Assembly: GCF_057098645.1 (NCBI RefSeq)
Contig: NZ_CM169472.1
Length of the DNA: 64,000 nt
Direction: 5' to 3' (one strand)
Below the pieces are notes generated by a model. It saw only the letters and a program-made list of their open reading frames with translations, had not been told where the DNA came from and ran no database searches. The position numbers and the translations under genes are program-made. Each line of letters starts with the position of its first letter. Position 1 is the stretch's first letter. Positions 2,411-12,133 of this stretch are shown here, one piece after another.

Positions 2411-3918
2411 TGGCAATTCTTGATGATGTGATTGGCGTTTTTTCACCAGGATGGAAAGCGGCAAGGCTGCGTTCCCGTGCGGTGATCCAGGCTTATGAGG
2501 CCGTAAAAACGACACGGACACACAAAGCCCGGCGGGAAAACCGAACTGCCGACCAGTTAAGCCAGTACGGGGCCGTGTCGTTACGTGAGCAGGCCCGTTA
2601 CCTTGATAACAACCACGATCTGGTTATTGGTGTATTTGACAAGCTGGAAGAACGGGTGGTGGGGAAAAACGGGATTATTGTCGAGCCACATCCGGTATTA
2701 CGCAATGGGGCCATTGCCCGTGATCTGGCAGCGGAGATACGCACCCGATGGAGTGAATGGTCTGTCAGTCCGGAAGTCACCGGGCAGTTTACCCGTCCGA
2801 TGCTGGAACGTCTGATGCTGCGTACCTGGCTGCGCGATGGTGAGGTGTTTGCCCAGATGGTTTCCGGGCGCATAAACAGCCTGACGCCTTCTGCCGGTGT
2901 TCATTTCTGGCTGGAGGCGCTCGAGCCGGACTTTATTCCCATGACCAGTGATGAGAGCAACAGGCTGAATCAGGGCGTGTTTGTTGATGACTGGGGGCGT
3001 CCCGAAAAATATCTGGTGTATAAAAGCCGTCCCGTATCCGGGCGGCAGATGGAAACCAAAGAAGTGGATGCAGAGCGAATGCTGCATCTTAAATTTGTTC
3101 GCCGTCTGCACCAGATGCGCGGGACGTCTTTGTTGTCCGGTGTGCTGATCCGCCTCAGTGCCCTGAAAGAGTATGAAGATTCTGAGCTGACTGCAGCAAG
3201 GATCGCCGCTGCTCTGGGGATGTACATCCGGAAAGGCGACGGGCAGAGCTATGAACCGGATGGTAATGGCAGCAAGGAGAATGAACGCGAGCTTACCATT
3301 CAGCCAGGCATTATTTACGACGATCTGAAACCCGGCGAAGAAATCGGAATGGTGAAGTCGGATCGTCCCAATCCTAACCTTGAAACTTTTCGTAATGGTC
3401 AGTTGCGTGCCGTGGCGGCGGGCAGTCGTCTGAGTTTTTCCAGTACGGCACGCAACTATAACGGCACTTACAGCGCCCAGCGTCAGGAACTGGTTGAGTC
3501 TACTGATGGCTACCTGATCCTGCAGGACTGGTTTATTGGTGCCGTCACCCGCCCGATGTATCGTGCCTGGCTGAAACAGGCTGTGGCATCCGGTGTTATC
3601 AGGTTACCCCGCGATCTTGACCGTTCTTCACTGTATACCGCGGTGTATTCCGGACCAGTGATGCCGTGGATTGACCCTGTTAAGGAGGCTGAGGCCTGGA
3701 AAATCCAGATTCGTGGTGGAGCGGCGACAGAATCAGACTGGGTACGTGCTGGTGGTCGTAATCCGGATGATGTCAAACGTCGGCGCAAGGCCGAAATTGA
3801 TGAAAACCGCAAGCTGGATCTGGTATTTGATACCGATCCGGCCAGTGATAAAGGAGGCAGCAGTGCCGCAACGAAACGACAGGAGCCGCAGCACACCGAC
3901 GACCAGTCCGAAGAATAA
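2410..3918 (+). CDS. Portal protein
   Basis: About 502 aa, starting at ATG 2410, which overlaps the W-like stop (ATGA). Position after terminase and W, and size, fit a lambda-family portal. The ORF-track start at 2338 is probably an upstream extension. Confidence 0.75.
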   Translation: MAILDDVIGVFSPGWKAARLRSRAVIQAYEAVKTTRTHKARRENRTADQLSQYGAVSLREQARYLDNNHDLVIGVFDKLEERVVGKNGIIVEPHPVLRNGAIARDLAAEIRTRWSEWSVSPEVTGQFTRPMLERLMLRTWLRDGEVFAQMVSGRINSLTPSAGVHFWLEALEPDFIPMTSDESNRLNQGVFVDDWGRPEKYLVYKSRPVSGRQMETKEVDAERMLHLKFVRRLHQMRGTSLLSGVLIRLSALKEYEDSELTAARIAAALGMYIRKGDGQSYEPDGNGSKENERELTIQPGIIYDDLKPGEEIGMVKSDRPNPNLETFRNGQLRAVAAGSRLSFSSTARNYNGTYSAQRQELVESTDGYLILQDWFIGAVTRPMYRAWLKQAVASGVIRLPRDLDRSSLYTAVYSGPVMPWIDPVKEAEAWKIQIRGGAATESDWVRAGGRNPDDVKRRRKAEIDENRKLDLVFDTDPASDKGGSSAATKRQEPQHTDDQSEE

Positions 3919-3931
3919 TTCCTGGTTCAGG

Positions 3932-5890
3932 ATGCAGGCTGGTCACCAGAGTGACGCGGATATTTATATTTATGACGAGATTGGTTTCTGGGGTGTTACA
4001 GCGAAGCAGTTTATCAGTGATCTGAATGCACTGGGCGATATCACCCACATTAATCTCCATATTAATTCACCGGGTGGCGATGTCTTTGAAGGCATCGCCA
4101 TTTTTAATGCGCTGAAAACACATGGTGCGTCCATTACCGTTTATGTCGACGGTGTGGCGGCGTCAATGGCGTCGGTCATTGCGATGGTGGGAAACCCGGT
4201 CATTATGCCGGAAAACACCTTCATGATGATTCATAAACCATTTGGCTTTACGGGCGGTGATGCGGAGGACATGCGCACCTATGCCGACCTGCTCGATAAG
4301 GTTGAGGCGGTTCTGTTACCCGCTTATGCACAGAAAACCGGGAAAACCACCGATGAAATTGCTGCCATGCTGGCGGATGAGACCTGGATGTCCGGTGCCG
4401 AATGTCTGGCACATGGATTTGCTGATCAGGTAACGCCAGCCGTTAAGGCAATGGCATGTATTCAGTCAAAACGTACAGAGGAATTTAAAAAGATGCCGGA
4501 ATCCATTCGAAACATGATTACTCCGCCACGCAACAGTGCTCCACGCGTACAGGATGATGAACCTGCAGCCTCCCGGACGCCAGTGCAGGCAGCAGCACCC
4601 GTGGTGGATGAAAACAGTATCCGTGCGCAGGTACTGGCAGAGCAAAAAGCGCGTGTAAACGGTATTAATGATCTGTTTGCCATGTTTGGCGGGCGTTATC
4701 AGACGCTGCAGGCTCAGTGTCTTGCCGATCCTGAATGTTCGCTGGAGCAGGCCCGCGAAAAGCTGTTGAACGAGATGGGGCGCGAGTCCACGCCATCCAA
4801 TAAAAATACCCCGGCTCATATTTATGCCGGTAACGGTAATTTTGTGGGGGACGGGATCCGCCAGGCGCTGATGGCGCGTGCCGGATTTGAAAAAACCGAA
4901 CGTGATAATGTCTACAACGGGATGACCCTGCGTGAATATGCCCGTATGTCACTGACTGAACGGGGTATTGGGGTTTCCAGTTATAACCCGATGCAGATGG
5001 TCGGTGCGGCGTTCACACACAGTACGTCTGACTTCGGTAATATTCTGCTGGATGTTGCGAACAAAGCCATTCTGCAGGGCTGGGAAGATGCCCCTGAAAC
5101 CTATGAACAGTGGACGCGGAAAGGTCAGTTGTCTGATTTTAAAATTGCCCATCGTGTGGGTATGGGGGGCTTCAGTGCTCTGCGTCAGGTGCGTGAAGGG
5201 GCGGAATATAAATACGTCACCACCGGAGATAAACAGGCCACTATTGCACTGGCGACCTATGGCGAGCTGTTCAGTATCACCCGTCAGGCCATTATCAATG
5301 ATGATCTGAATATGCTGACCGATGTCCCGATGAAACTGGGCCGTGCGGCGAAATCCACTATTGCCGATCTGGTTTATGCCATTCTGACGTCTAACCCGAA
5401 AATCTCCACAGATAATGTAAGTCTGTTCGATAAAGCGAAACATGCAAACGTACTGGAGAGCGCTGCAATGGACGTGGCATCGCTGGATAAAGCCCGCCAG
5501 TTGATGCGCGTTCAGAAAGAGGGGGAGCGTCATCTGAATATTCGTCCTGCGTTCGTACTGGTACCGACGGCGATGGAGTCTGTTGCTAACCAGGTCATTC
5601 GCTCCTCAAGTGTCAAGGGGGCTGACATTAACGCCGGTATTATTAACCCGGTGAAAGATTTTGCGACCGTTATTGCAGAGCCTCGTCTTGATGATAACAG
5701 CCAGACCACTTTCTACCTGGCTGCGTCCAAAGGCTCCGATACGATTGAAGTGGCTTATCTCAACGGTGTGGATACGCCATATATTGATCAGATGGAGGGC
5801 TTCAGTGTGGATGGCGTGACAACGAAAGTGCGTATTGACGCCGGTGTCGCGCCAGTTGATCACCGCGGTCTGGTGAAATGTACGGCGTAA
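3932..5890 (+). CDS. Prohead protease (ClpP-like) fused to scaffold-like linker and major capsid protein domain
   Basis: Single uninterrupted frame. The N-terminal ~200 aa look like a ClpP/S14 peptidase (INSPGGDV, MASV.A, MIHKP). A charged Pro/Ala-rich linker follows, then a C-terminal ~330 aa capsid-like domain. Start chosen at the first ATG after the portal stop. Confidence 0.7.
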   Translation: MQAGHQSDADIYIYDEIGFWGVTAKQFISDLNALGDITHINLHINSPGGDVFEGIAIFNALKTHGASITVYVDGVAASMASVIAMVGNPVIMPENTFMMIHKPFGFTGGDAEDMRTYADLLDKVEAVLLPAYAQKTGKTTDEIAAMLADETWMSGAECLAHGFADQVTPAVKAMACIQSKRTEEFKKMPESIRNMITPPRNSAPRVQDDEPAASRTPVQAAAPVVDENSIRAQVLAEQKARVNGINDLFAMFGGRYQTLQAQCLADPECSLEQAREKLLNEMGRESTPSNKNTPAHIYAGNGNFVGDGIRQALMARAGFEKTERDNVYNGMTLREYARMSLTERGIGVSSYNPMQMVGAAFTHSTSDFGNILLDVANKAILQGWEDAPETYEQWTRKGQLSDFKIAHRVGMGGFSALRQVREGAEYKYVTTGDKQATIALATYGELFSITRQAIINDDLNMLTDVPMKLGRAAKSTIADLVYAILTSNPKISTDNVSLFDKAKHANVLESAAMDVASLDKARQLMRVQKEGERHLNIRPAFVLVPTAMESVANQVIRSSSVKGADINAGIINPVKDFATVIAEPRLDDNSQTTFYLAASKGSDTIEVAYLNGVDTPYIDQMEGFSVDGVTTKVRIDAGVAPVDHRGLVKCTA

Positions 5891-7561: not shown

Positions 7562-8311
7562 GTGGCAATGACCACACCAAATCCACTGGCAAAAACGAAA
7601 GGTGCGGGAACGACGTTCTGGATGTACACCGGCAAGGGCGATGCGTTTGCGAACCCTTTATCGGACACTGACTGGCTGCGTCTTGCGATGGTGAAGGATC
7701 TGCAACCTGGCGAAATGACCGCTGATGCAGAAGATGACACTTATCTCGATGATGAAGATGCAGACTGGAAAACGACAACCCAGGGGCAGAAATCCGTCGG
7801 TGATACTTCGGCGACGCTGGCCTGGCGTCCGGGTGACAGCGGGCAGAAAAAACTGGTTCAGTTGTTCGACTCCGGTGAAGTCTGCGCGTTTCGTATCAAA
7901 TATCCCAACGGCACTGTTGATGTTTTCCGTGGCTGGCTGAGCTCACTGGGTAAAACCATTGCCTCAAAAGACGTGATGACCCGCACAGTGAAAATCAGCG
8001 GTGTGGGGCGTCCGTATCTGGCAGAGGAAGGCACTGAAACAGTGAGCGTTACCGGGCTGACGGTGGCACCGGCATCTGCCAGTGTAAAAGTGGGAGCAAC
8101 CACCACGCTGACCTTTACAGTAAAACCTGACGGAGCCAGTGACAAAGCGATCAGTGTGCATTCGACAGATCCACAGACTGCCACGGTGACCCTGAACGGG
8201 CTTGTGGCCACGGTGAAAGGCGTGAAGCAGGGCAGTGTCAGCATTGTGGGCATGACTTCTGACGGCGATTTTGTGGCAGTGGCTGCGGTGGCTGTCAGCG
8301 CCGCAGGTTAA
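7562..8311 (+). CDS. V: Major tail protein V with C-terminal Ig-like domain
   Basis: 249 aa, near-colinear with lambda gpV (KGAGTT.W.Y.G, YLDDEDADW, FRGW.SS.GK). Strong SD AAGGAGG precedes the start. Confidence 0.9.
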   Translation: MAMTTPNPLAKTKGAGTTFWMYTGKGDAFANPLSDTDWLRLAMVKDLQPGEMTADAEDDTYLDDEDADWKTTTQGQKSVGDTSATLAWRPGDSGQKKLVQLFDSGEVCAFRIKYPNGTVDVFRGWLSSLGKTIASKDVMTRTVKISGVGRPYLAEEGTETVSVTGLTVAPASASVKVGATTTLTFTVKPDGASDKAISVHSTDPQTATVTLNGLVATVKGVKQGSVSIVGMTSDGDFVAVAAVAVSAAG

Positions 8312-8331
8312 CAGGACGATACTCATCATTT

Positions 8332-8355
8332 GCCCCGGTTATCCGGGGCTTTTTT
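8332..8355 (+). terminator. Stem-loop with T-run between V and G (possible attenuator)
   Basis: GCCCCGG-TTAT-CCGGGGC followed by TTTTTT, immediately after the V stop. Confidence 0.45.
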
Positions 8356-8368
8356 GCAGGTGGAGAAC

Positions 8369-8758
8369 ATGATGTTTCTGAAACAGGGCACGTTTAATTA
8401 TGAAAAGCAGTCCGTGGTGCTCAGTGAGCTGTCCGGGCTGCAGAGAATTGAATATCTGGCGTTTGTTCAGCAGCGAACGGCAAAGTTTGATGCCGAAGAG
8501 GGAGAACTGCCGGAGGCTGAACGACAGATTGCTTTTCTGCGGATGGGGATGGATATCAATGCCTGGCTGGTTTCCCGCTCACTGTGGAATGCGGAACAGT
8601 CTCAGGATGTTGAGACGCTTTGCGCATCCGTTATTACAACATGGTCGTATGATGCCCTGGGAGCGGGGGCGGAGATGGTTCTGTCGCTGAGCGGTATGGG
8701 AGCCATTGAGAATGCCGGGGATTTGGAGCATGAGGTGCTGACGCCGGAAAAGTCCTGA
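8369..8758 (+). CDS. G: Tail assembly chaperone G
   Basis: Start MMFLKQ parallels lambda G MFLKT, and the LSELSGLQRIEYLA motif matches. The ORF-track TTG start at 8330 lies inside the upstream hairpin and is rejected. Confidence 0.8.
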   Translation: MMFLKQGTFNYEKQSVVLSELSGLQRIEYLAFVQQRTAKFDAEEGELPEAERQIAFLRMGMDINAWLVSRSLWNAEQSQDVETLCASVITTWSYDALGAGAEMVLSLSGMGAIENAGDLEHEVLTPEKS

Positions 8759-9096
8759 CGCGGGAAATGCAGTTTGTCATGCGGCTTGCCCGGGAGTTCC
8801 GGCGGGCAGACTGGCGGCGGATGCTGTCGGAAATGTCGGCCACTGAGCTTGGTGAGTGGGGCGATTATTTCCGGATGCAGAGCTTCAGTGATGTCTGGAT
8901 GGATGCGCAGTTTGCCTCGCTGAAGGCATTGATCGTGAGAATGGTGTCCGGCAGCAGTGATGCTGCGGTGGCTGATTTCAGCCTTTTACCGGAAGAGAAC
9001 GGGATACCGGAGCGAACGGACGAAGAACTGATGCATCTTGGAGAAGGTATTTCCGGAGGTGTGCGTTATGGACCAGATAGCCAACCTGGTCATTGA
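8734..9096 (+). CDS. T: Tail assembly chaperone T segment, expressed as a G-T fusion by -1 frameshift
   Basis: The -1 frame relative to G is open from 8734 and continues to 9096. G ends at 8758, so the shift must occur in 8734-8758. The lambda GGGAAAG site is replaced here by GGAAAAG at 8746-8752. Confidence 0.6.
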   Translation, partial: GADAGKVLTREMQFVMRLAREFRRADWRRMLSEMSATELGEWGDYFRMQSFSDVWMDAQFASLKALIVRMVSGSSDAAVADFSLLPEENGIPERTDEELMHLGEGISGGVRYGPDSQPGH

Positions 9097-12000
9097 TTTG
9101 GGGATTGATGCGGCAGAGTTTAAAAATGAAATTCCCCGTATCAAAAACCTTCTGAATGGTGCCGCCAGCGATGCAGAACGGTCTTCTGCCCGTATGCAGC
9201 GTTTTATGGAGCGTCAGACTCAGGCCGCCCGGCAGACAACGCAGGCGGCTTCTTCGGCTGCAACAGCCGCCTCCGTCCATGCGCAGACGGTGGAGAAGAA
9301 CGCACAGGCTCATGAACGCATGGCCCGCGAGGTGGAGAAAACCCGCCAGCGCATGGAGGCGCTGAGCCAGAAAATGCGCGATGAACAGGCGCAGGCCATG
9401 GCTCTGGCGGAGGCTCAGGATAAAGCGGCTGCTGCGTTTTATCGTCAGATTGACAGTGTGAAACAGGCCAGTGCGGGGCTGCAGGAATTACAGCGTATTC
9501 AGCAGCAGATCCGACAGGCCAGAAACAGTGGCGGGATTGGTCAGCAGGATTATCTGGCGCTGATTTCTGAGGTTACGGCGAAAACCCGTGTTCTTACACA
9601 GGCTGAGGAAGAGGCTACCCGACAGAAAGTGGCGTTTATCCGTCAGCTTAAAGAGCAGGCAACCCGCCAGAATCTTTCTTCTTCTGAGTTGCTTCGTGCT
9701 AAGGCTGCCCAGCTGGGGGTAAGCAGTGCTGCAGAAGTGTATATCCGCAAAATGGAGCAGGCAGGAAAAGCCACGCATTCGCTGGGTCTGAAAAGTGCAG
9801 CGGCCCGCCAGGAGATAGGCGTTCTGATAGGTGAACTGGCTCGCGGCAATTTAGGTGCGCTGAGGGGATCCGGGATAACGCTGGCTAACCGTGCCGGATG
9901 GATAGACACACTGATGTCACCGAAAGGCATGATGCTGGGCGGGGTTATTGGCGGTATTGCCGCGGCCGTCTATGGTCTGGGTAAAGCCTGGTATGATGGT
10001 CAGAAGGAGGGGGAAGAATTTAACCGCCAGTTGTCGCTGACGGGGCATTATGCCGGAGTCACTGCCGGGCAGCTGTGGACGCTCAGTCGTGCTATTTCCG
10101 GGAATGGTATTACGCAACATGCTGCAGCCGGTGCGCTGGCTCAGGTGGTGGGGAGTGGTGCATTTCGTGGAAACGATATCGGTATGGTGGCGAGAGCTGC
10201 CGCACAGATGGAGCGATCGGTTGGCCAGTCGGTCAGCGATACCATAAATCAGTTTAAGCGGCTGAAGGATGATCCTGTAAATGCCGCGAAGGCTCTGGAC
10301 AATGAGCTGCATTTTCTTACTGCCACTCAGCTTGAGCAGATACGCGTCCTTGGGGAACAGGGGCGGTCCAGTGATGCGGCACGGATAGCCATGTCTGCAC
10401 TGGCAGAGGAAACCGGTCGGCGTACTGCGGATATTGATAATAACCTCAATGCGCTGGGCAGTACGCTGAAGTATCTGTCTGATTTATGGAGTCGTTTCTG
10501 GGATGCGGCCATGAATATTGGTCGTGAAGACTCGCTGGATGAACAGATTTCCGCTTTACAGGAGAAAGTGTCGCAGGCGAAAAGACTCCCCTGGACGGCA
10601 TCATCTTCTCAGGTTGAGTACGATCAGCAGCGTCTTAACGAGCTTCAGGAGAAAAAACGCCAGAAGGATTTGCAGGATGCAAAAGAGCAGGCAGAGCGGA
10701 ATTATCAGGAGCAACAGAAACGCCGTAATGCTGAAAATGCTGCACTGAACCGGATGAATGAAACGGAAGCAGCACGACATCAGCGTGAAATTGCGCGTAT
10801 TAATGCCATGCAGTACGCCGATCAGGCTGTCAGGGATGCGGCGATACAACGTGAAAATGAACGTTACGAGAAAGCCCTGGCATCCGGTAAGAAAAAAACA
10901 CGCGAACCCCGTAATGATGAGGCCACCCGGTTATTGCTGCAGTACAGTCAGCAACAGGCACAGGTGGAAGGACAGATTGCTGCTGCCAGACAGTCAGCAG
11001 GCATTGCCACGGAAAGGATGACAGAAGCGCATAAACAGCTTCTGGCTCTGCAGCAGCGCATCAGCGACCTGGACGGGAAAAAACTGACGGCAGATGAAAA
11101 GAGTGTGCTGGCCCGTAAAGATGAACTGATTCAGGCACTGACGCTGCTGGATGTAAAACAGCAGGAGCTTCAGAAACAGACGGCACTCAACGAGCTGAAG
11201 AAAAAAACAATTCAGCTGACCAGTCAACTGGCTGAAGAAGAGCGCGCTCAGCGTCAGCAACATGACCTGGATATCGCCACGGTGGGTATGGGTGATCAGC
11301 AGCGGCAGCGATATCAGGTACAACTGAGTCTTCGCCAGAAATACCAGCAACAGCTGGAACAGTTGAGGCGGGATAGTGAGCAGAAAGGAACATATAACAC
11401 GGATGACTACAGAAAGGCCGAGCAGGCGCTGACGGAGAGCCTGAACCGACAACTGAATGAGAATCGCCGTTACTGGCAACAGCTTGAAGTTGTGCAGGGT
11501 AACTGGAAAAACGGAGTCCTGCGTGCATTTCAGGATTTTACCGTGGATGCAGATAATACGGCAGGAACAGCAGAACAGGTGTTCTCGTCAGCCTTCAGCA
11601 ACATGGGAAATGGCCTGGCAACTTTTGTCACTACCGGCAAACTCAATTTCAAATCCTTCACCTCTTCTGTGCTGTCAGATATGGCGAAAATCCTGGCGCA
11701 GGCAACCATGATGAAATCGATAAAAGGGATTGGCAGTGTACTGGGATTTGATCTCAGCAGCCTTTCCCTGAATGCCAATGGGGGGATTTATCAGTCTGCT
11801 GATTTGAGTCGTTACAGTGGCACGGTGGTTAACCGTCCGACGTTTTTTGCTTTTGCAAAAGGCGCGGGTGTGATGGGGGAAGCGGGACCTGAAGCCATTC
11901 TGCCACTGCGTCGTGGTGCTGACGGTAAGCTGGGGGTTGTGGCGGATATTGGTGGTTCAGGTATGGCGATGTTTGCCCCGCAGTACAACATCGAGATCAA

Positions 12001-12133
12001 TAACGATGGCACGAACGGGCAGATAGGTCCGGCTGCCCTGAAGGTGGTTTATGACCTTGGGAAAAAAGCGGCAGCGGACTTTATGCAACAGCAGGCCCGT
12101 GATGGTGGTCGGTTAAGTGGAGCATATCGGTAA
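9068..12133 (+). CDS. H: Tail tape measure protein H
   Basis: About 1021 aa, coiled-coil-rich. The C-terminus (NDGTNGQIGPAALK.VYD) matches lambda gpH. Start chosen at MDQIANLVIDL, by analogy to lambda H MAEPVGDLVVDL. Confidence 0.85.
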   Translation: MDQIANLVIDLGIDAAEFKNEIPRIKNLLNGAASDAERSSARMQRFMERQTQAARQTTQAASSAATAASVHAQTVEKNAQAHERMAREVEKTRQRMEALSQKMRDEQAQAMALAEAQDKAAAAFYRQIDSVKQASAGLQELQRIQQQIRQARNSGGIGQQDYLALISEVTAKTRVLTQAEEEATRQKVAFIRQLKEQATRQNLSSSELLRAKAAQLGVSSAAEVYIRKMEQAGKATHSLGLKSAAARQEIGVLIGELARGNLGALRGSGITLANRAGWIDTLMSPKGMMLGGVIGGIAAAVYGLGKAWYDGQKEGEEFNRQLSLTGHYAGVTAGQLWTLSRAISGNGITQHAAAGALAQVVGSGAFRGNDIGMVARAAAQMERSVGQSVSDTINQFKRLKDDPVNAAKALDNELHFLTATQLEQIRVLGEQGRSSDAARIAMSALAEETGRRTADIDNNLNALGSTLKYLSDLWSRFWDAAMNIGREDSLDEQISALQEKVSQAKRLPWTASSSQVEYDQQRLNELQEKKRQKDLQDAKEQAERNYQEQQKRRNAENAALNRMNETEAARHQREIARINAMQYADQAVRDAAIQRENERYEKALASGKKKTREPRNDEATRLLLQYSQQQAQVEGQIAAARQSAGIATERMTEAHKQLLALQQRISDLDGKKLTADEKSVLARKDELIQALTLLDVKQQELQKQTALNELKKKTIQLTSQLAEEERAQRQQHDLDIATVGMGDQQRQRYQVQLSLRQKYQQQLEQLRRDSEQKGTYNTDDYRKAEQALTESLNRQLNENRRYWQQLEVVQGNWKNGVLRAFQDFTVDADNTAGTAEQVFSSAFSNMGNGLATFVTTGKLNFKSFTSSVLSDMAKILAQATMMKSIKGIGSVLGFDLSSLSLNANGGIYQSADLSRYSGTVVNRPTFFAFAKGAGVMGEAGPEAILPLRRGADGKLGVVADIGGSGMAMFAPQYNIEINNDGTNGQIGPAALKVVYDLGKKAAADFMQQQARDGGRLSGAYR

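What the first reader, a model, noticed from the sequence alone, without database searches (positions are those of the whole stretch)
8734..8767. G-T tail chaperone frameshift window with a variant slippery site
The lambda gpG/gpGT arrangement is conserved: the T frame is open in -1 relative to G from 8734 and G stops at 8758. The canonical lambda heptamer GGGAAAG is replaced by GGAAAAG (8746-8752). A-site slippage on A-AAG is still possible, but P-site re-pairing (GAA to GGA) would be mismatched. This is either a lower-efficiency natural variant or a hint that the shift happens by single-tRNA slippage.
Basis: partly seen in the sequence, partly recalled or inferred. Interest (0 to 1): 0.35.

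Follow-up and report, generated by a model that had tools for sequence, protein, structure and literature searches.

The report
Known phage tail G-T frameshift site
This is the usual ribosome-slipping site that lets a lambda-like prophage make a small amount of a fused tail-assembly protein; its "variant" slippery sequence GGAAAAG is real, old and widespread, and is already marked as the slip site in phage N15, so the finding is correct but ordinary.

Summary
Gene G (8369-8758) ends ACG CCG GAA AAG TCC TGA. The -1 (T) frame is open from 8734. G_GAA_AAG lies at 8746-8752, at the position of lambda's G_GGA_AAG.

The locus is the tail module of a cdtI/mEp460/Ayreon-type lambdoid prophage, found in 1848 of 5426 complete E. 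coli genomes.

GGAAAAG is not a local mutation:
- Among 141 unique related G-T loci, 89 (15 of 22 clusters, G identity down to about 41%) carry it.
- All seven bases are invariant, including three G-frame synonymous sites, while flanking third positions vary.
- Sequence variation switches to T-frame third positions immediately after the heptamer, before the annotated T start ATG 8767. That ATG is CTG, CTT or AAG in many relatives.

So T is made as a G-T fusion by a -1 shift here.

It is not new. N15's GenBank record labels GGAAAAG as the slippery sequence, HK97's annotated frameshift overlap contains it, and Gifsy-1's homologue is annotated as frameshifted.

The invariant first G, at a four-fold degenerate site, favours two-tRNA slippage with a middle-position G·U pair over pure single-tRNA slippage. 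This is inferred, not shown.

No conserved downstream structure was found. An SD-like GAGGTG lies 8 nt upstream but is not universal. Efficiency is unknown.

The parts
7562..8311 (+). Major tail (tube) protein gene, lambda gpV type with a C-terminal Ig-like domain
   Evidence: ORF. Pfam PF16461 (E=6.4e-67) plus PF02368 Big_2.
8332..8356 (+). Intrinsic-terminator-like hairpin (GCCCCGG TTAT CCGGGGC) plus T-run, between V and G
   Evidence: Scan. The same feature is annotated as a terminator or stem-loop in the Ayreon, mEp460, N15 and HK97 records.
8369..8758 (+). Gene G, tail assembly chaperone (129 aa from ATG 8369; RefSeq uses the second ATG at 8372)
   Evidence: PF06894, E=1.8e-39. Annotated as gpG / tail chaperone. 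SD GGTGGAG upstream pairs with the anti-SD at -7.0 kcal/mol.
8732..8737 (+). SD-like GAGGTG, 8 nt upstream of the heptamer; a possible lineage-specific frameshift stimulator
   Evidence: Anti-SD duplex of -9.2 kcal/mol; only 7% of positions in the same gene are as good. It fits the criteria of PMC4066793. It is absent from 6 of 15 GGAAAAG clusters, so it is not required.
8734..8758 (+). Overlap of the G frame and the open -1 (T) frame, 25 nt
   Evidence: T-frame TGA at 8731-8733 and G stop at 8756-8758.
8746..8752 (+). Shift site G_GAA_AAG (P-site GAA to GGA, A-site AAG to AAA)
   Evidence: Invariant in 89 unique relatives. Homologous in position to lambda G_GGA_AAG. The same heptamer is annotated as the slippery sequence in N15.
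8752..9096 (+). T-frame part of the predicted G-T fusion (114 aa, VLTREMQF...; fusion of 242 aa with junction ...LTPEK|VLTRE...)
   Evidence: Translations. PF06223. 39% identity to lambda T starting at the heptamer. T-frame third-position variability starts at heptamer offset +11.
8767..8769 (+). ATG used by GenBank and RefSeq as the start of a stand-alone T gene; most likely just an internal Met codon of G-T
   Evidence: Annotations. Anti-SD pairing is only -4.3 kcal/mol and abuts the ATG. The codon is ATG in 41 of 89 unique relatives and CTG, CTT or AAG in the rest.
9068..12133 (+). Tape measure protein gene (lambda gpH type), overlapping the end of T
   Evidence: PF06791, PF09718 and PF24622. 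Strong SD GGAGGTG at -13.3 kcal/mol.

Best explanation
The site is the programmed -1 ribosomal frameshift that makes the G-T fusion tail assembly chaperone of a cdtI/mEp460-type lambdoid prophage.

Most ribosomes translate G (129 aa) to the TGA at 8756. A minority slip back one base when GAA (8747-8749) and AAG (8750-8752) occupy the P and A sites. tRNA-Lys re-pairs perfectly with AAA. tRNA-Glu re-pairs with GGA through two Watson-Crick pairs and a central G·U. Translation then continues in the T frame (VLTREMQF...) to 9096, giving a 242-aa G-T protein. By analogy with lambda, its G part would bind the tape measure protein and its T part would recruit the tail tube protein.

G_GAA_AAG is an ancient, fixed alternative to lambda's G_GGA_AAG in one major branch of the family. 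In this lineage an SD-like GAGGTG 8 nt upstream may raise the shift frequency.

Shown here: gene identities, frames, the heptamer, its conservation, and T-frame coding constraint beginning at the heptamer. Inferred: that a fusion protein is made, its frequency, the two-tRNA mechanism, and the SD effect.
For: Gene identities and order:
- The order V-G-T-H is supported by Pfam hits.

Homology of the T frame:
- The T frame aligns to lambda T from the heptamer onward without gaps.

Conservation of the heptamer:
- In 141 unique related loci the homologous position always carries an A_AAG-ending motif, apart from 2 truncated or rearranged G genes: GGAAAAG 89, GGGAAAG 46, AAAAAAG 3, AGCAAAG 1.
- All 7 bases of GGAAAAG have zero entropy in 89 sequences. 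Neighbouring G-frame third positions have entropy 1.3-1.8.
- In the same genes, G ends only 38% of Pro/Ala/Val codons, GAA is 54% of Glu codons and AAG is 29% of Lys codons.

T-frame coding starts at the heptamer:
- Variability switches to T-frame third positions at offsets +11, +14, +17 and +20, upstream of the ATG-equivalent at +21.
- That ATG is absent in Gifsy-like and other clusters and has no usable SD.

Existing annotation of relatives:
- Gifsy-1's homologue, with the same CCGGAAAAGTCCTGA, is annotated 'by translational frameshifting'.
- N15's record labels GGAAAAG as the slippery sequence.
- HK97's annotated -1 frameshift overlap contains G_GAA_AAG.

Background on lambda:
- The role of lambda G/GT is described in PMC5009743.
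Against: - No protein-level evidence for the fusion was available for this module.
- In a reconstituted E. coli system, AUG GAA AAG gave mainly 0-frame product and was used as the 'less slippery' control (PMC6924986).
- A_AAG without a stimulator is near background in vivo, about 0.15% (PMC4066793).
- No significant or conserved downstream structure was found.
- The SD-like element is missing in 6 of 15 GGAAAAG clusters.
- One relative (L153) has A_GCA_AAG, where no P-site re-pairing is possible, so two-tRNA re-pairing is not obligatory in the family.
- All database records inspected for this module annotate T as a separate gene.
Confidence: 0.88

Rival explanations
1. Pure single-tRNA slippage. 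Only tRNA-Lys slips from AAG to AAA on the A_AAG tetramer. tRNA-Glu merely releases the third base of GAA (the NNA_AAG hexamer mechanism, as in B. subtilis cdd or IS1222). The first G of the heptamer plays no role.
For: - A_AAG is the most shift-prone tetramer in E. coli (PMC4066793).
- NNA_AAG sites are used naturally (PMC5009743).
- One relative has A_GCA_AAG at the same spot (L153).
- The tRNA-Glu/GGA pairing has a second-position mismatch, described as unfavourable in PMC6924986.
Against: - Heptamer position 1 is G in 89 of 89 unique sequences and all 15 clusters. It is the third base of four-fold degenerate Pro, Ala or Val codons, and is not decoded in the T frame.
- Across the family, position 1 matches position 2 in 21 of 22 clusters (G_GG, G_GA, A_AA).
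- From memory of Licznar et al. 2003 (not held): tRNAs with restricted wobble, such as tRNA-Glu with mnm5s2U34, are in the class that limits hexamer-type shifting.
Confidence: 0.3
2. T is made as an independent protein from ATG 8767, as annotated in GenBank and RefSeq. This could occur by re-initiation after termination at the G stop 8 nt upstream. The heptamer would then be only a relic.
For: - An ATG is present at 8767 and conserved in the cdtI-like clusters of at least 64% G identity.
- The G stop is only 8 nt upstream.
- All records inspected for this module annotate T this way.
Against: - The ATG is CTG, CTT or AAG in 48 of 89 unique GGAAAAG-type relatives, which still keep the heptamer and the open T frame.
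- T-frame codon-position constraint and constant spacing (GK-x-x-x-x-E-L/M) begin at the heptamer, upstream of the ATG.
- There is no usable SD: -4.3 kcal/mol, abutting the ATG.
- The heptamer's three synonymous sites are invariant, which a relic would not show.
- In lambda, T is known only as part of gpGT (PMC5009743).
Confidence: 0.07
3. The frame change is made at the RNA level, by transcriptional slippage on the A-run, rather than by the ribosome.
For: The site contains a run of four A. Poly-A runs can cause polymerase slippage (PMC3711429).
Against: - The run is only 4 A.
- The poly-A/T stretches used as slippage signals in PMC3711429 are at least 7 nt long.
- The conserved features are codon-phased (G_GAA_AAG, always AAG and never AAA), which fits tRNA re-pairing rather than polymerase slippage.
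Confidence: 0.01

Closest known systems
Bacteriophage lambda gpG/gpGT -1 programmed frameshift at G_GGA_AAG (Levin, Hendrix & Casjens 1993; Xu, Hendrix & Duda 2004, 2013, 2014, as summarised in PMC5009743)
   Same: - Same gene order (V, G, T, H) and same Pfam families PF06894 and PF06223.
- Same frame relation (-1).
- The shift site is at the homologous position, and the T-frame alignment starts at the heptamer.
- The A_AAG A-site part is identical.
- No conserved downstream structure was found.
   Different: - The third base of the heptamer is A, not G. The P-site codon is therefore GAA (Glu), re-pairing to GGA with a central G·U, instead of GGA (Gly) re-pairing to GGG.
- The G stop is 1 codon after the AAG rather than 5.
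- G is only 36% identical to lambda G.
- An SD-like GAGGTG lies upstream here and not in lambda.
Phage N15 genes 14/15 (GenBank NC_001901, misc_feature 'slippery sequence for -1 translational frameshift')
   Same: - The annotated slippery sequence is exactly GGAAAAG, phased G_GAA_AAG, in a PF06894 G gene followed by a PF06223 T frame.
- The T N-terminus is of the same ...LAREF type.
   Different: - N15 G is only 30% identical to the window's G.
- Its G stop is 5 codons after the AAG.
- It has no SD-like element upstream.
- The N15 annotation is a prediction in the record. I could not check experimental support.
Gifsy-1 STM2596/STM2595 and phage cdtI, mEp460, Ayreon and phi458 tail modules
   Same: - cdtI-type phages are 97.5-99.5% identical in DNA over 8300-9150.
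- Gifsy-1 G is 55% identical and has the same CCGGAAAAGTCCTGA.
- Gifsy-1's T is annotated as made 'by translational frameshifting'.
   Different: - Gifsy-1 has CTG where this window has ATG 8767.
- The cdtI-type records annotate T as a stand-alone gene and do not mention slippage.
NNA_AAG hexanucleotide / A_AAG tetranucleotide -1 shift sites (B. subtilis cdd A_CGA_AAG, IS1222 G_CGA_AAG) and dnaX-type upstream SD stimulation
   Same: - The shift relies on E. coli tRNA-Lys(UUU) moving from AAG to AAA.
- An SD-like sequence lies within the 6-17 nt stimulatory range used in PMC4066793.
   Different: - Here the P-site tRNA can still form a near-cognate pairing (G:C, G·U, A:U), and the first G is conserved.
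- There is no downstream hairpin or pseudoknot as in dnaX or IS3.
G_GAN_NNN-type heptamers of eukaryotic RNA viruses, and the 'twofour' motif of the PRFect predictor
   Same: - The X_XX part is G_GA rather than three identical bases. It is listed as an intermediate between hexamer and heptamer sites in PMC5009743.
- PRFect catalogues a two-plus-four motif class, and notes GAA to GGA re-pairing through G:U when discussing a different motif (fivetwo) (PMC10885494).
   Different: - Those cases involve eukaryotic ribosomes or purely computational motif classes.
- None concerns lambda-type G-T in enterobacteria.

Membership tests
Lambda-type G/GT tail assembly chaperone frameshift | Two overlapping ORFs located between the major tail protein gene and the tape measure gene | tested here: met
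   V 7562-8311, G 8369-8758, T frame 8734-9096, H 9068-12133.
Lambda-type G/GT tail assembly chaperone frameshift | The upstream ORF is a G-type chaperone and the downstream frame encodes a T domain | tested here: met
   PF06894 at E=1.8e-39 and PF06223 at E=5.1e-15. BLASTP of the T frame against lambda T gives E=6e-29.
Lambda-type G/GT tail assembly chaperone frameshift | The downstream frame is -1 relative to G and lacks its own conserved start and ribosome binding site | tested here: met
   The -1 relation is shown. ATG 8767 exists but has poor SD pairing and is not ATG in 48 of 89 relatives.
Lambda-type G/GT tail assembly chaperone frameshift | Canonical X_XXY_YYZ heptamer (XXX and YYY each identical) in the overlap, phased to the G frame | tested here: not met
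   The heptamer is G_GAA_AAG, so X_XX is G_GA. The minimal Z_ZZN element A_AAG is present and correctly phased. N15's record accepts this same heptamer as the slippery sequence.
Lambda-type G/GT tail assembly chaperone frameshift | The shift site is conserved among relatives beyond what coding requires | tested here: met
   Zero entropy at all 7 bases in 89 unique sequences and 15 clusters, including 3 synonymous sites.
Lambda-type G/GT tail assembly chaperone frameshift | A G-T fusion protein is produced at a few per cent of G and is required for tail assembly | not testable with these tools
   This needs protein analysis or a reporter assay. Lambda's ratio of about 30:1 comes from PMC5009743.
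dnaX-type stimulated -1 frameshift (heptamer plus upstream SD plus downstream hairpin) | SD-like sequence 6-17 nt upstream of the motif | tested here: met
   GAGGTG at 8732-8737 pairs at -9.2 kcal/mol. It is met in only 9 of 15 GGAAAAG clusters, so it is not a family-wide feature.
dnaX-type stimulated -1 frameshift (heptamer plus upstream SD plus downstream hairpin) | Stable, conserved RNA structure starting 4-10 nt downstream of the motif | tested here: not met
   The fold z-score is -1.07, with 26 of 200 shuffles folding as well. The consensus structure of 15 representatives starts 31 nt downstream, with a covariation term of -0.28.
NNA_AAG hexanucleotide single-tRNA slippage | A_AAG with a 5' codon whose tRNA cannot re-pair in the -1 frame; the base before that codon is irrelevant | tested here: inconclusive
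   tRNA-Glu on GGA retains 2 Watson-Crick pairs plus a G·U. The preceding base is invariably G at a four-fold degenerate site, which argues against irrelevance. L153 (A_GCA_AAG) shows the hexamer type does occur in the family.

The most novel reading that the evidence does not exclude
G_GAA_AAG is a genuine two-tRNA slippery heptamer in enterobacteria. The P-site tRNA-Glu re-pairs on GGA through a second-position G·U, and this has been maintained by selection across a deep branch of lambda-type (and possibly HK97-type) tail modules. It gives a working G:GT ratio even though the same sequence serves as a 'non-slippery' control in vitro. In some lineages it is helped by upstream SD-like sequences. 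If so, motif definitions limited to X_XXZ_ZZN miss one of the most common natural frameshift sites in E. coli genomes.
Probability: 0.45. Interest if true: 0.35.

Novelty: already known. Interest (0 to 1): 0.15.

Why it matters
There is little new biology here. The G-T frameshift is a textbook case, and this exact heptamer is already annotated in N15.

Three practical points remain:
- The stand-alone 'tail assembly protein T' CDS annotated in the RefSeq and GenBank records inspected (the module is present in 1848 of 5426 complete E. coli genomes) is very probably wrong, and should be a G-T fusion with ribosomal slippage.
- Genome-wide searches and predictors restricted to strict X_XXZ_ZZN heptamers would miss this site class.
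- The contrast between deep natural conservation of G_GAA_AAG and its use as a poorly shifting in vitro control makes it a cheap, well-defined test of how much P-site mismatch E. coli ribosomes tolerate during -1 shifting.

Tried and rejected
- **Downstream stimulatory RNA structure.** A single-sequence fold of 8753-8850 was not better than shuffles (z=-1.07), and lambda likewise. RNAalifold on 15 cluster representatives found only a weak helix starting 31 nt downstream, with almost no covariation. Rejected.
- **Upstream SD-like stimulator as a general compensator for the weak P-site pairing.** It is present in 10 of 16 weak-motif clusters against 0 of 6 strong-motif clusters, with a background rate of 0.21 per position (Fisher p=0.015). 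However, the clusters are phylogenetically dependent and six GGAAAAG clusters lack it, as do N15 and HK97. Kept only as a possible lineage-specific booster.
- **Early G stop (one codon after AAG) as a compensator.** It is seen in 11 of 15 GGAAAAG clusters and in no lambda-like cluster. But HK97-type chaperone cassettes with canonical A_AAA_AAG and G_GGA_AAG also have a stop 0-1 codon after the site (Table S2 of PMC3711429). No specific link, so not pursued.
- **Independent T initiation and transcriptional slippage.** See the rival explanations; both are disfavoured.
- **Literature.**
  - Licznar et al. 2003 (all NNA_AAG hexamers, which would include GAA_AAG) is not held.
  - Xu et al. 2004, Levin et al. 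1993 and the N15 and HK97 genome papers are not in the searchable library.
  - A search for GGAAAAG plus 'slippery' gave 5 papers, none on phage G-T.
  - Antonov et al. 2013 measured 6-7% for two HK97-like chaperone cassettes, but these carry A_AAA_AAG and G_GGA_AAG, not G_GAA_AAG.
- **Not done.** I did not scan the metagenome or genome collections. The viral-contig survey already answered the question.

Full report
**What is in the sequence**

Window 8369-8758 is an ORF whose product matches Pfam PF06894 (lambda tail assembly chaperone G, E=1.8e-39). The -1 frame from 8734 to 9096 matches PF06223 (minor tail protein T). Upstream lie Z-, U- and V-type tail genes, and downstream lie a lambda-type tape measure gene and an M-type gene.

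The G frame reads ...GTG CTG ACG CCG GAA AAG TCC TGA, with the stop at 8756-8758. The T frame has a TGA at 8731-8733 and is open from 8734. GGAAAAG sits at 8746-8752, phased G_GAA_AAG.

Within the 25-nt overlap, the AAG codon preceded by A is the only place where a tRNA can re-pair well one base back. The heptamer alone is not rare in the window: 13 copies against 8.7 expected. Its meaning comes from position, phase and conservation.

**Where it comes from**

The 851 bases around the site are 97.5-99.5% identical to phages phi458, Ayreon, cdtI, Tritos and mEp460. They are also present in 1848 of 5426 complete E. coli genomes, nearly always on the chromosome. The window therefore carries a common cdtI/mEp460-type lambdoid prophage. 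One genome, strain YPE10, is 100% identical.

In all records of this module that I inspected, T is annotated as a stand-alone gene starting at the ATG equivalent to 8767 or further downstream, with no slippage noted.

**Relation to lambda**

Lambda reads ...TCT GCG GGA AAG TGT TCG ACG GTG AGC TGA. The two T frames align from the first codon of the heptamer, without gaps:
- window: GKVLTREMQFVMRLAREF...
- lambda: GKVFDGELSFALKLAREM...

The alignment has 39% identity over 113 residues (E=6e-29). So GGAAAAG is the positional homologue of lambda's GGGAAAG, differing by G to A at heptamer base 3.

**Is it a sporadic variant?**

It is not. Four scans of viral contigs gave 141 unique G-T loci in 22 clusters at 80% G identity (analysis).

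| Motif at the homologous position | Unique sequences | Clusters |
|---|---|---|
| G_GAA_AAG | 89 | 15 |
| G_GGA_AAG | 46 | 4 (lambda-like) |
| A_AAA_AAG | 3 | 2 |
| A_GCA_AAG | 1 | 1 |

The remaining 2 of the 141 unique loci are truncated or rearranged G genes with no motif at this position.

No cluster is heterogeneous for heptamer type. The split follows phylogeny. T proteins beginning F-V-[ML]-x-LAREF go with G_GAA_AAG, and those with FALxLAREM go with G_GGA_AAG or A_AAA_AAG. My sampling was seeded with GGAAAAG-type queries, so the proportions are biased. The depth is not: GGAAAAG clusters are only about 41-47% identical to the window's G.

**Evidence that the heptamer is under selection**

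In the 89 GGAAAAG sequences all seven bases are invariant. Neighbouring G-frame third positions have entropies of 1.3-1.8 bits. Three of the seven bases are synonymous in G:
- the first G, third base of CCG, GCG or GTG, which is four-fold degenerate;
- the A ending GAA;
- the G ending AAG.

Elsewhere in the same genes, G ends 38% of Pro/Ala/Val codons, GAA is 54% of Glu codons and AAG is only 29% of Lys codons. The joint expectation per lineage is therefore about 0.06.

**Evidence that T is read from the heptamer**

Immediately after the heptamer the most variable columns become T-frame third positions, at offsets +11, +14, +17 and +20. These lie upstream of the ATG-equivalent at +21 to +23. 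The spacing from the heptamer to the conserved E-(L/M)-x-F motif is constant in all clusters.

The codon at +21 is ATG in 41 of 89 unique sequences and CTG, CTT or AAG in the rest. Gifsy-1, for example, has CTG. ATG 8767 has only a -4.3 kcal/mol anti-SD match, directly abutting it. The corresponding values are -7.0 for G, -7.5 for V and -13.3 for H.

Stand-alone initiation of T is therefore unlikely to be the conserved route. The predicted product is a 242-aa fusion with junction ...LTPEK|VLTREMQF....

**Mechanism**

The A-site step (tRNA-Lys, AAG to AAA) is the classic E. coli shift. A_AAG is the most shift-prone tetramer (PMC4066793).

The P-site tRNA-Glu would face GGA, forming G:C, a central G·U, and A:U. 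The invariant first G cannot be explained by G coding or by T coding, because that codon is not decoded in the T frame. Across the family, base 1 equals base 2 in 21 of 22 clusters (G_GG, G_GA, A_AA). I take this as evidence that P-site re-pairing contributes, meaning near-cognate two-tRNA slippage rather than pure single-tRNA slippage. This is inference. The single A_GCA_AAG lineage (L153) shows that a hexamer-type site can occupy the same position.

**Stimulators**

No significant downstream structure was found, either in the single-sequence fold (z=-1.07) or in the consensus fold of 15 representatives, where the first helix starts 31 nt downstream and the covariation term is -0.28.

Upstream, GAGGTG at 8732-8737 pairs with the anti-SD at -9.2 kcal/mol. 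It falls in the 6-17 nt range used for SD-like stimulators in PMC4066793. SD-like motifs occur in 10 of 16 clusters with a weak P-site match and in 0 of 6 with canonical heptamers, against a background rate of 0.21. Six GGAAAAG clusters lack them, as do N15 and HK97, and the clusters are not independent. It is at most a lineage-specific booster.

The G stop lies one codon after AAG in 11 of 15 GGAAAAG clusters (TGA, TAG or TAA). Canonical heptamers in HK97-type chaperones show the same arrangement, so I attach no role to it.

**Efficiency**

Efficiency is unknown.
- In a reconstituted system, AUG GAA AAG was chosen as the unfavourable control and gave mainly 0-frame product. EF-G mutants raised shifting on it in parallel with G_GGA_AAG (PMC6924986).
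- Tetramers without a stimulator are near background in vivo, 0.147% against 0.112% (PMC4066793).
- Two HK97-like chaperone cassettes with canonical heptamers gave 6-7% in E. coli (PMC3711429).
- Lambda's G:GT ratio is about 30:1 (PMC5009743).
- I found no in vivo value for G_GAA_AAG.

**Is it new?**

It is not new.
- The N15 GenBank record carries a misc_feature 'slippery sequence for -1 translational frameshift' at 10027-10033, which is GGAAAAG phased G_GAA_AAG, in a PF06894/PF06223 gene pair.
- HK97's annotated -1 frameshift overlap (7807-7858) contains G_GAA_AAG at 7834-7840 as one of two candidate sites. Its G belongs to a different family, PF06222.
- Gifsy-1's homologue, with the identical CCGGAAAAGTCCTGA, is annotated as made by translational frameshifting.
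- Reviews already list G_GA-type X_XX parts as intermediates between hexamer and heptamer sites, in eukaryotic viruses (PMC5009743).
- The PRFect predictor includes a two-plus-four motif class, and, when discussing a different motif (fivetwo), comments on GAA to GGA re-pairing through G:U (PMC10885494).

**Verdict**

It is, however, the ordinary G-T frameshift of a very common prophage, using a heptamer that is ancient, widespread and already annotated elsewhere.

Two things remain of modest value. One is an annotation correction: T should be a G-T fusion. The other is a clean experimental question about P-site mismatch tolerance.

Noticed in passing
window 8332-8356: A strong intrinsic-terminator-like hairpin (7 G-C pairs plus a T-run) sits between the major tail gene V and gene G. 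The same feature is annotated in the Ayreon, mEp460, N15 and HK97 records. This suggests conserved transcriptional attenuation between the abundant tube protein and the chaperone and tape-measure genes.
   Followed up: partly
window 8767-9096 (and the equivalent CDS in RefSeq and GenBank records): T is annotated as a stand-alone 109-aa protein from ATG 8767 (or later, in Ayreon) in every record of this module inspected. Slippage is not annotated. The module occurs in 1848 of 5426 complete E. coli genomes, so this is a widespread probable mis-annotation.
   Followed up: yes
window 8753-8758 and related loci (e.g. L131 1618-1623, L154 1621-1626): In 11 of 15 GGAAAAG clusters the G stop lies exactly one codon after the AAG. 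Three different stop codons are used (TGA, TAG, TAA), and two lineages use the rare Leu codon CTA in the T frame to create the stop. All lambda-like clusters stop 5 codons after. HK97-type cassettes with canonical heptamers also have early stops, so the meaning is unclear.
   Followed up: partly
L153 1605-1611 (IMG/VR UViG_2718217853_000002): One relative carries A_GCA_AAG at the homologous shift position. This is a pure NNA_AAG hexamer with no possible P-site re-pairing. It is accompanied by an SD-like GAGGA 10-11 nt upstream and an early TGA.
   Followed up: no
L285 835-841 (HK97 record 7834-7840): HK97's G belongs to a different chaperone family (PF06222) but is followed by the same T domain (PF06223). 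It has G_GAA_AAG in phase within its annotated frameshift overlap. The overlap also contains A_CCC_CCG, so the exact HK97 site could not be fixed from the table.
   Followed up: partly
window about 3860-5890 (from L214 4564-6591): The head module encodes a ClpP-like prohead protease fused to the major capsid protein as a single 675-aa CDS, according to the RefSeq annotation of the identical YPE10 prophage.
   Followed up: no
window 9038-9096: The tape measure gene's ATG at 9068 has a very strong SD (GGAGGTG, -13.3 kcal/mol). That SD lies inside the conserved C-terminal GGVRYGPD motif of T, so T's C-terminus and H's ribosome binding site are encoded by the same bases.
   Followed up: no
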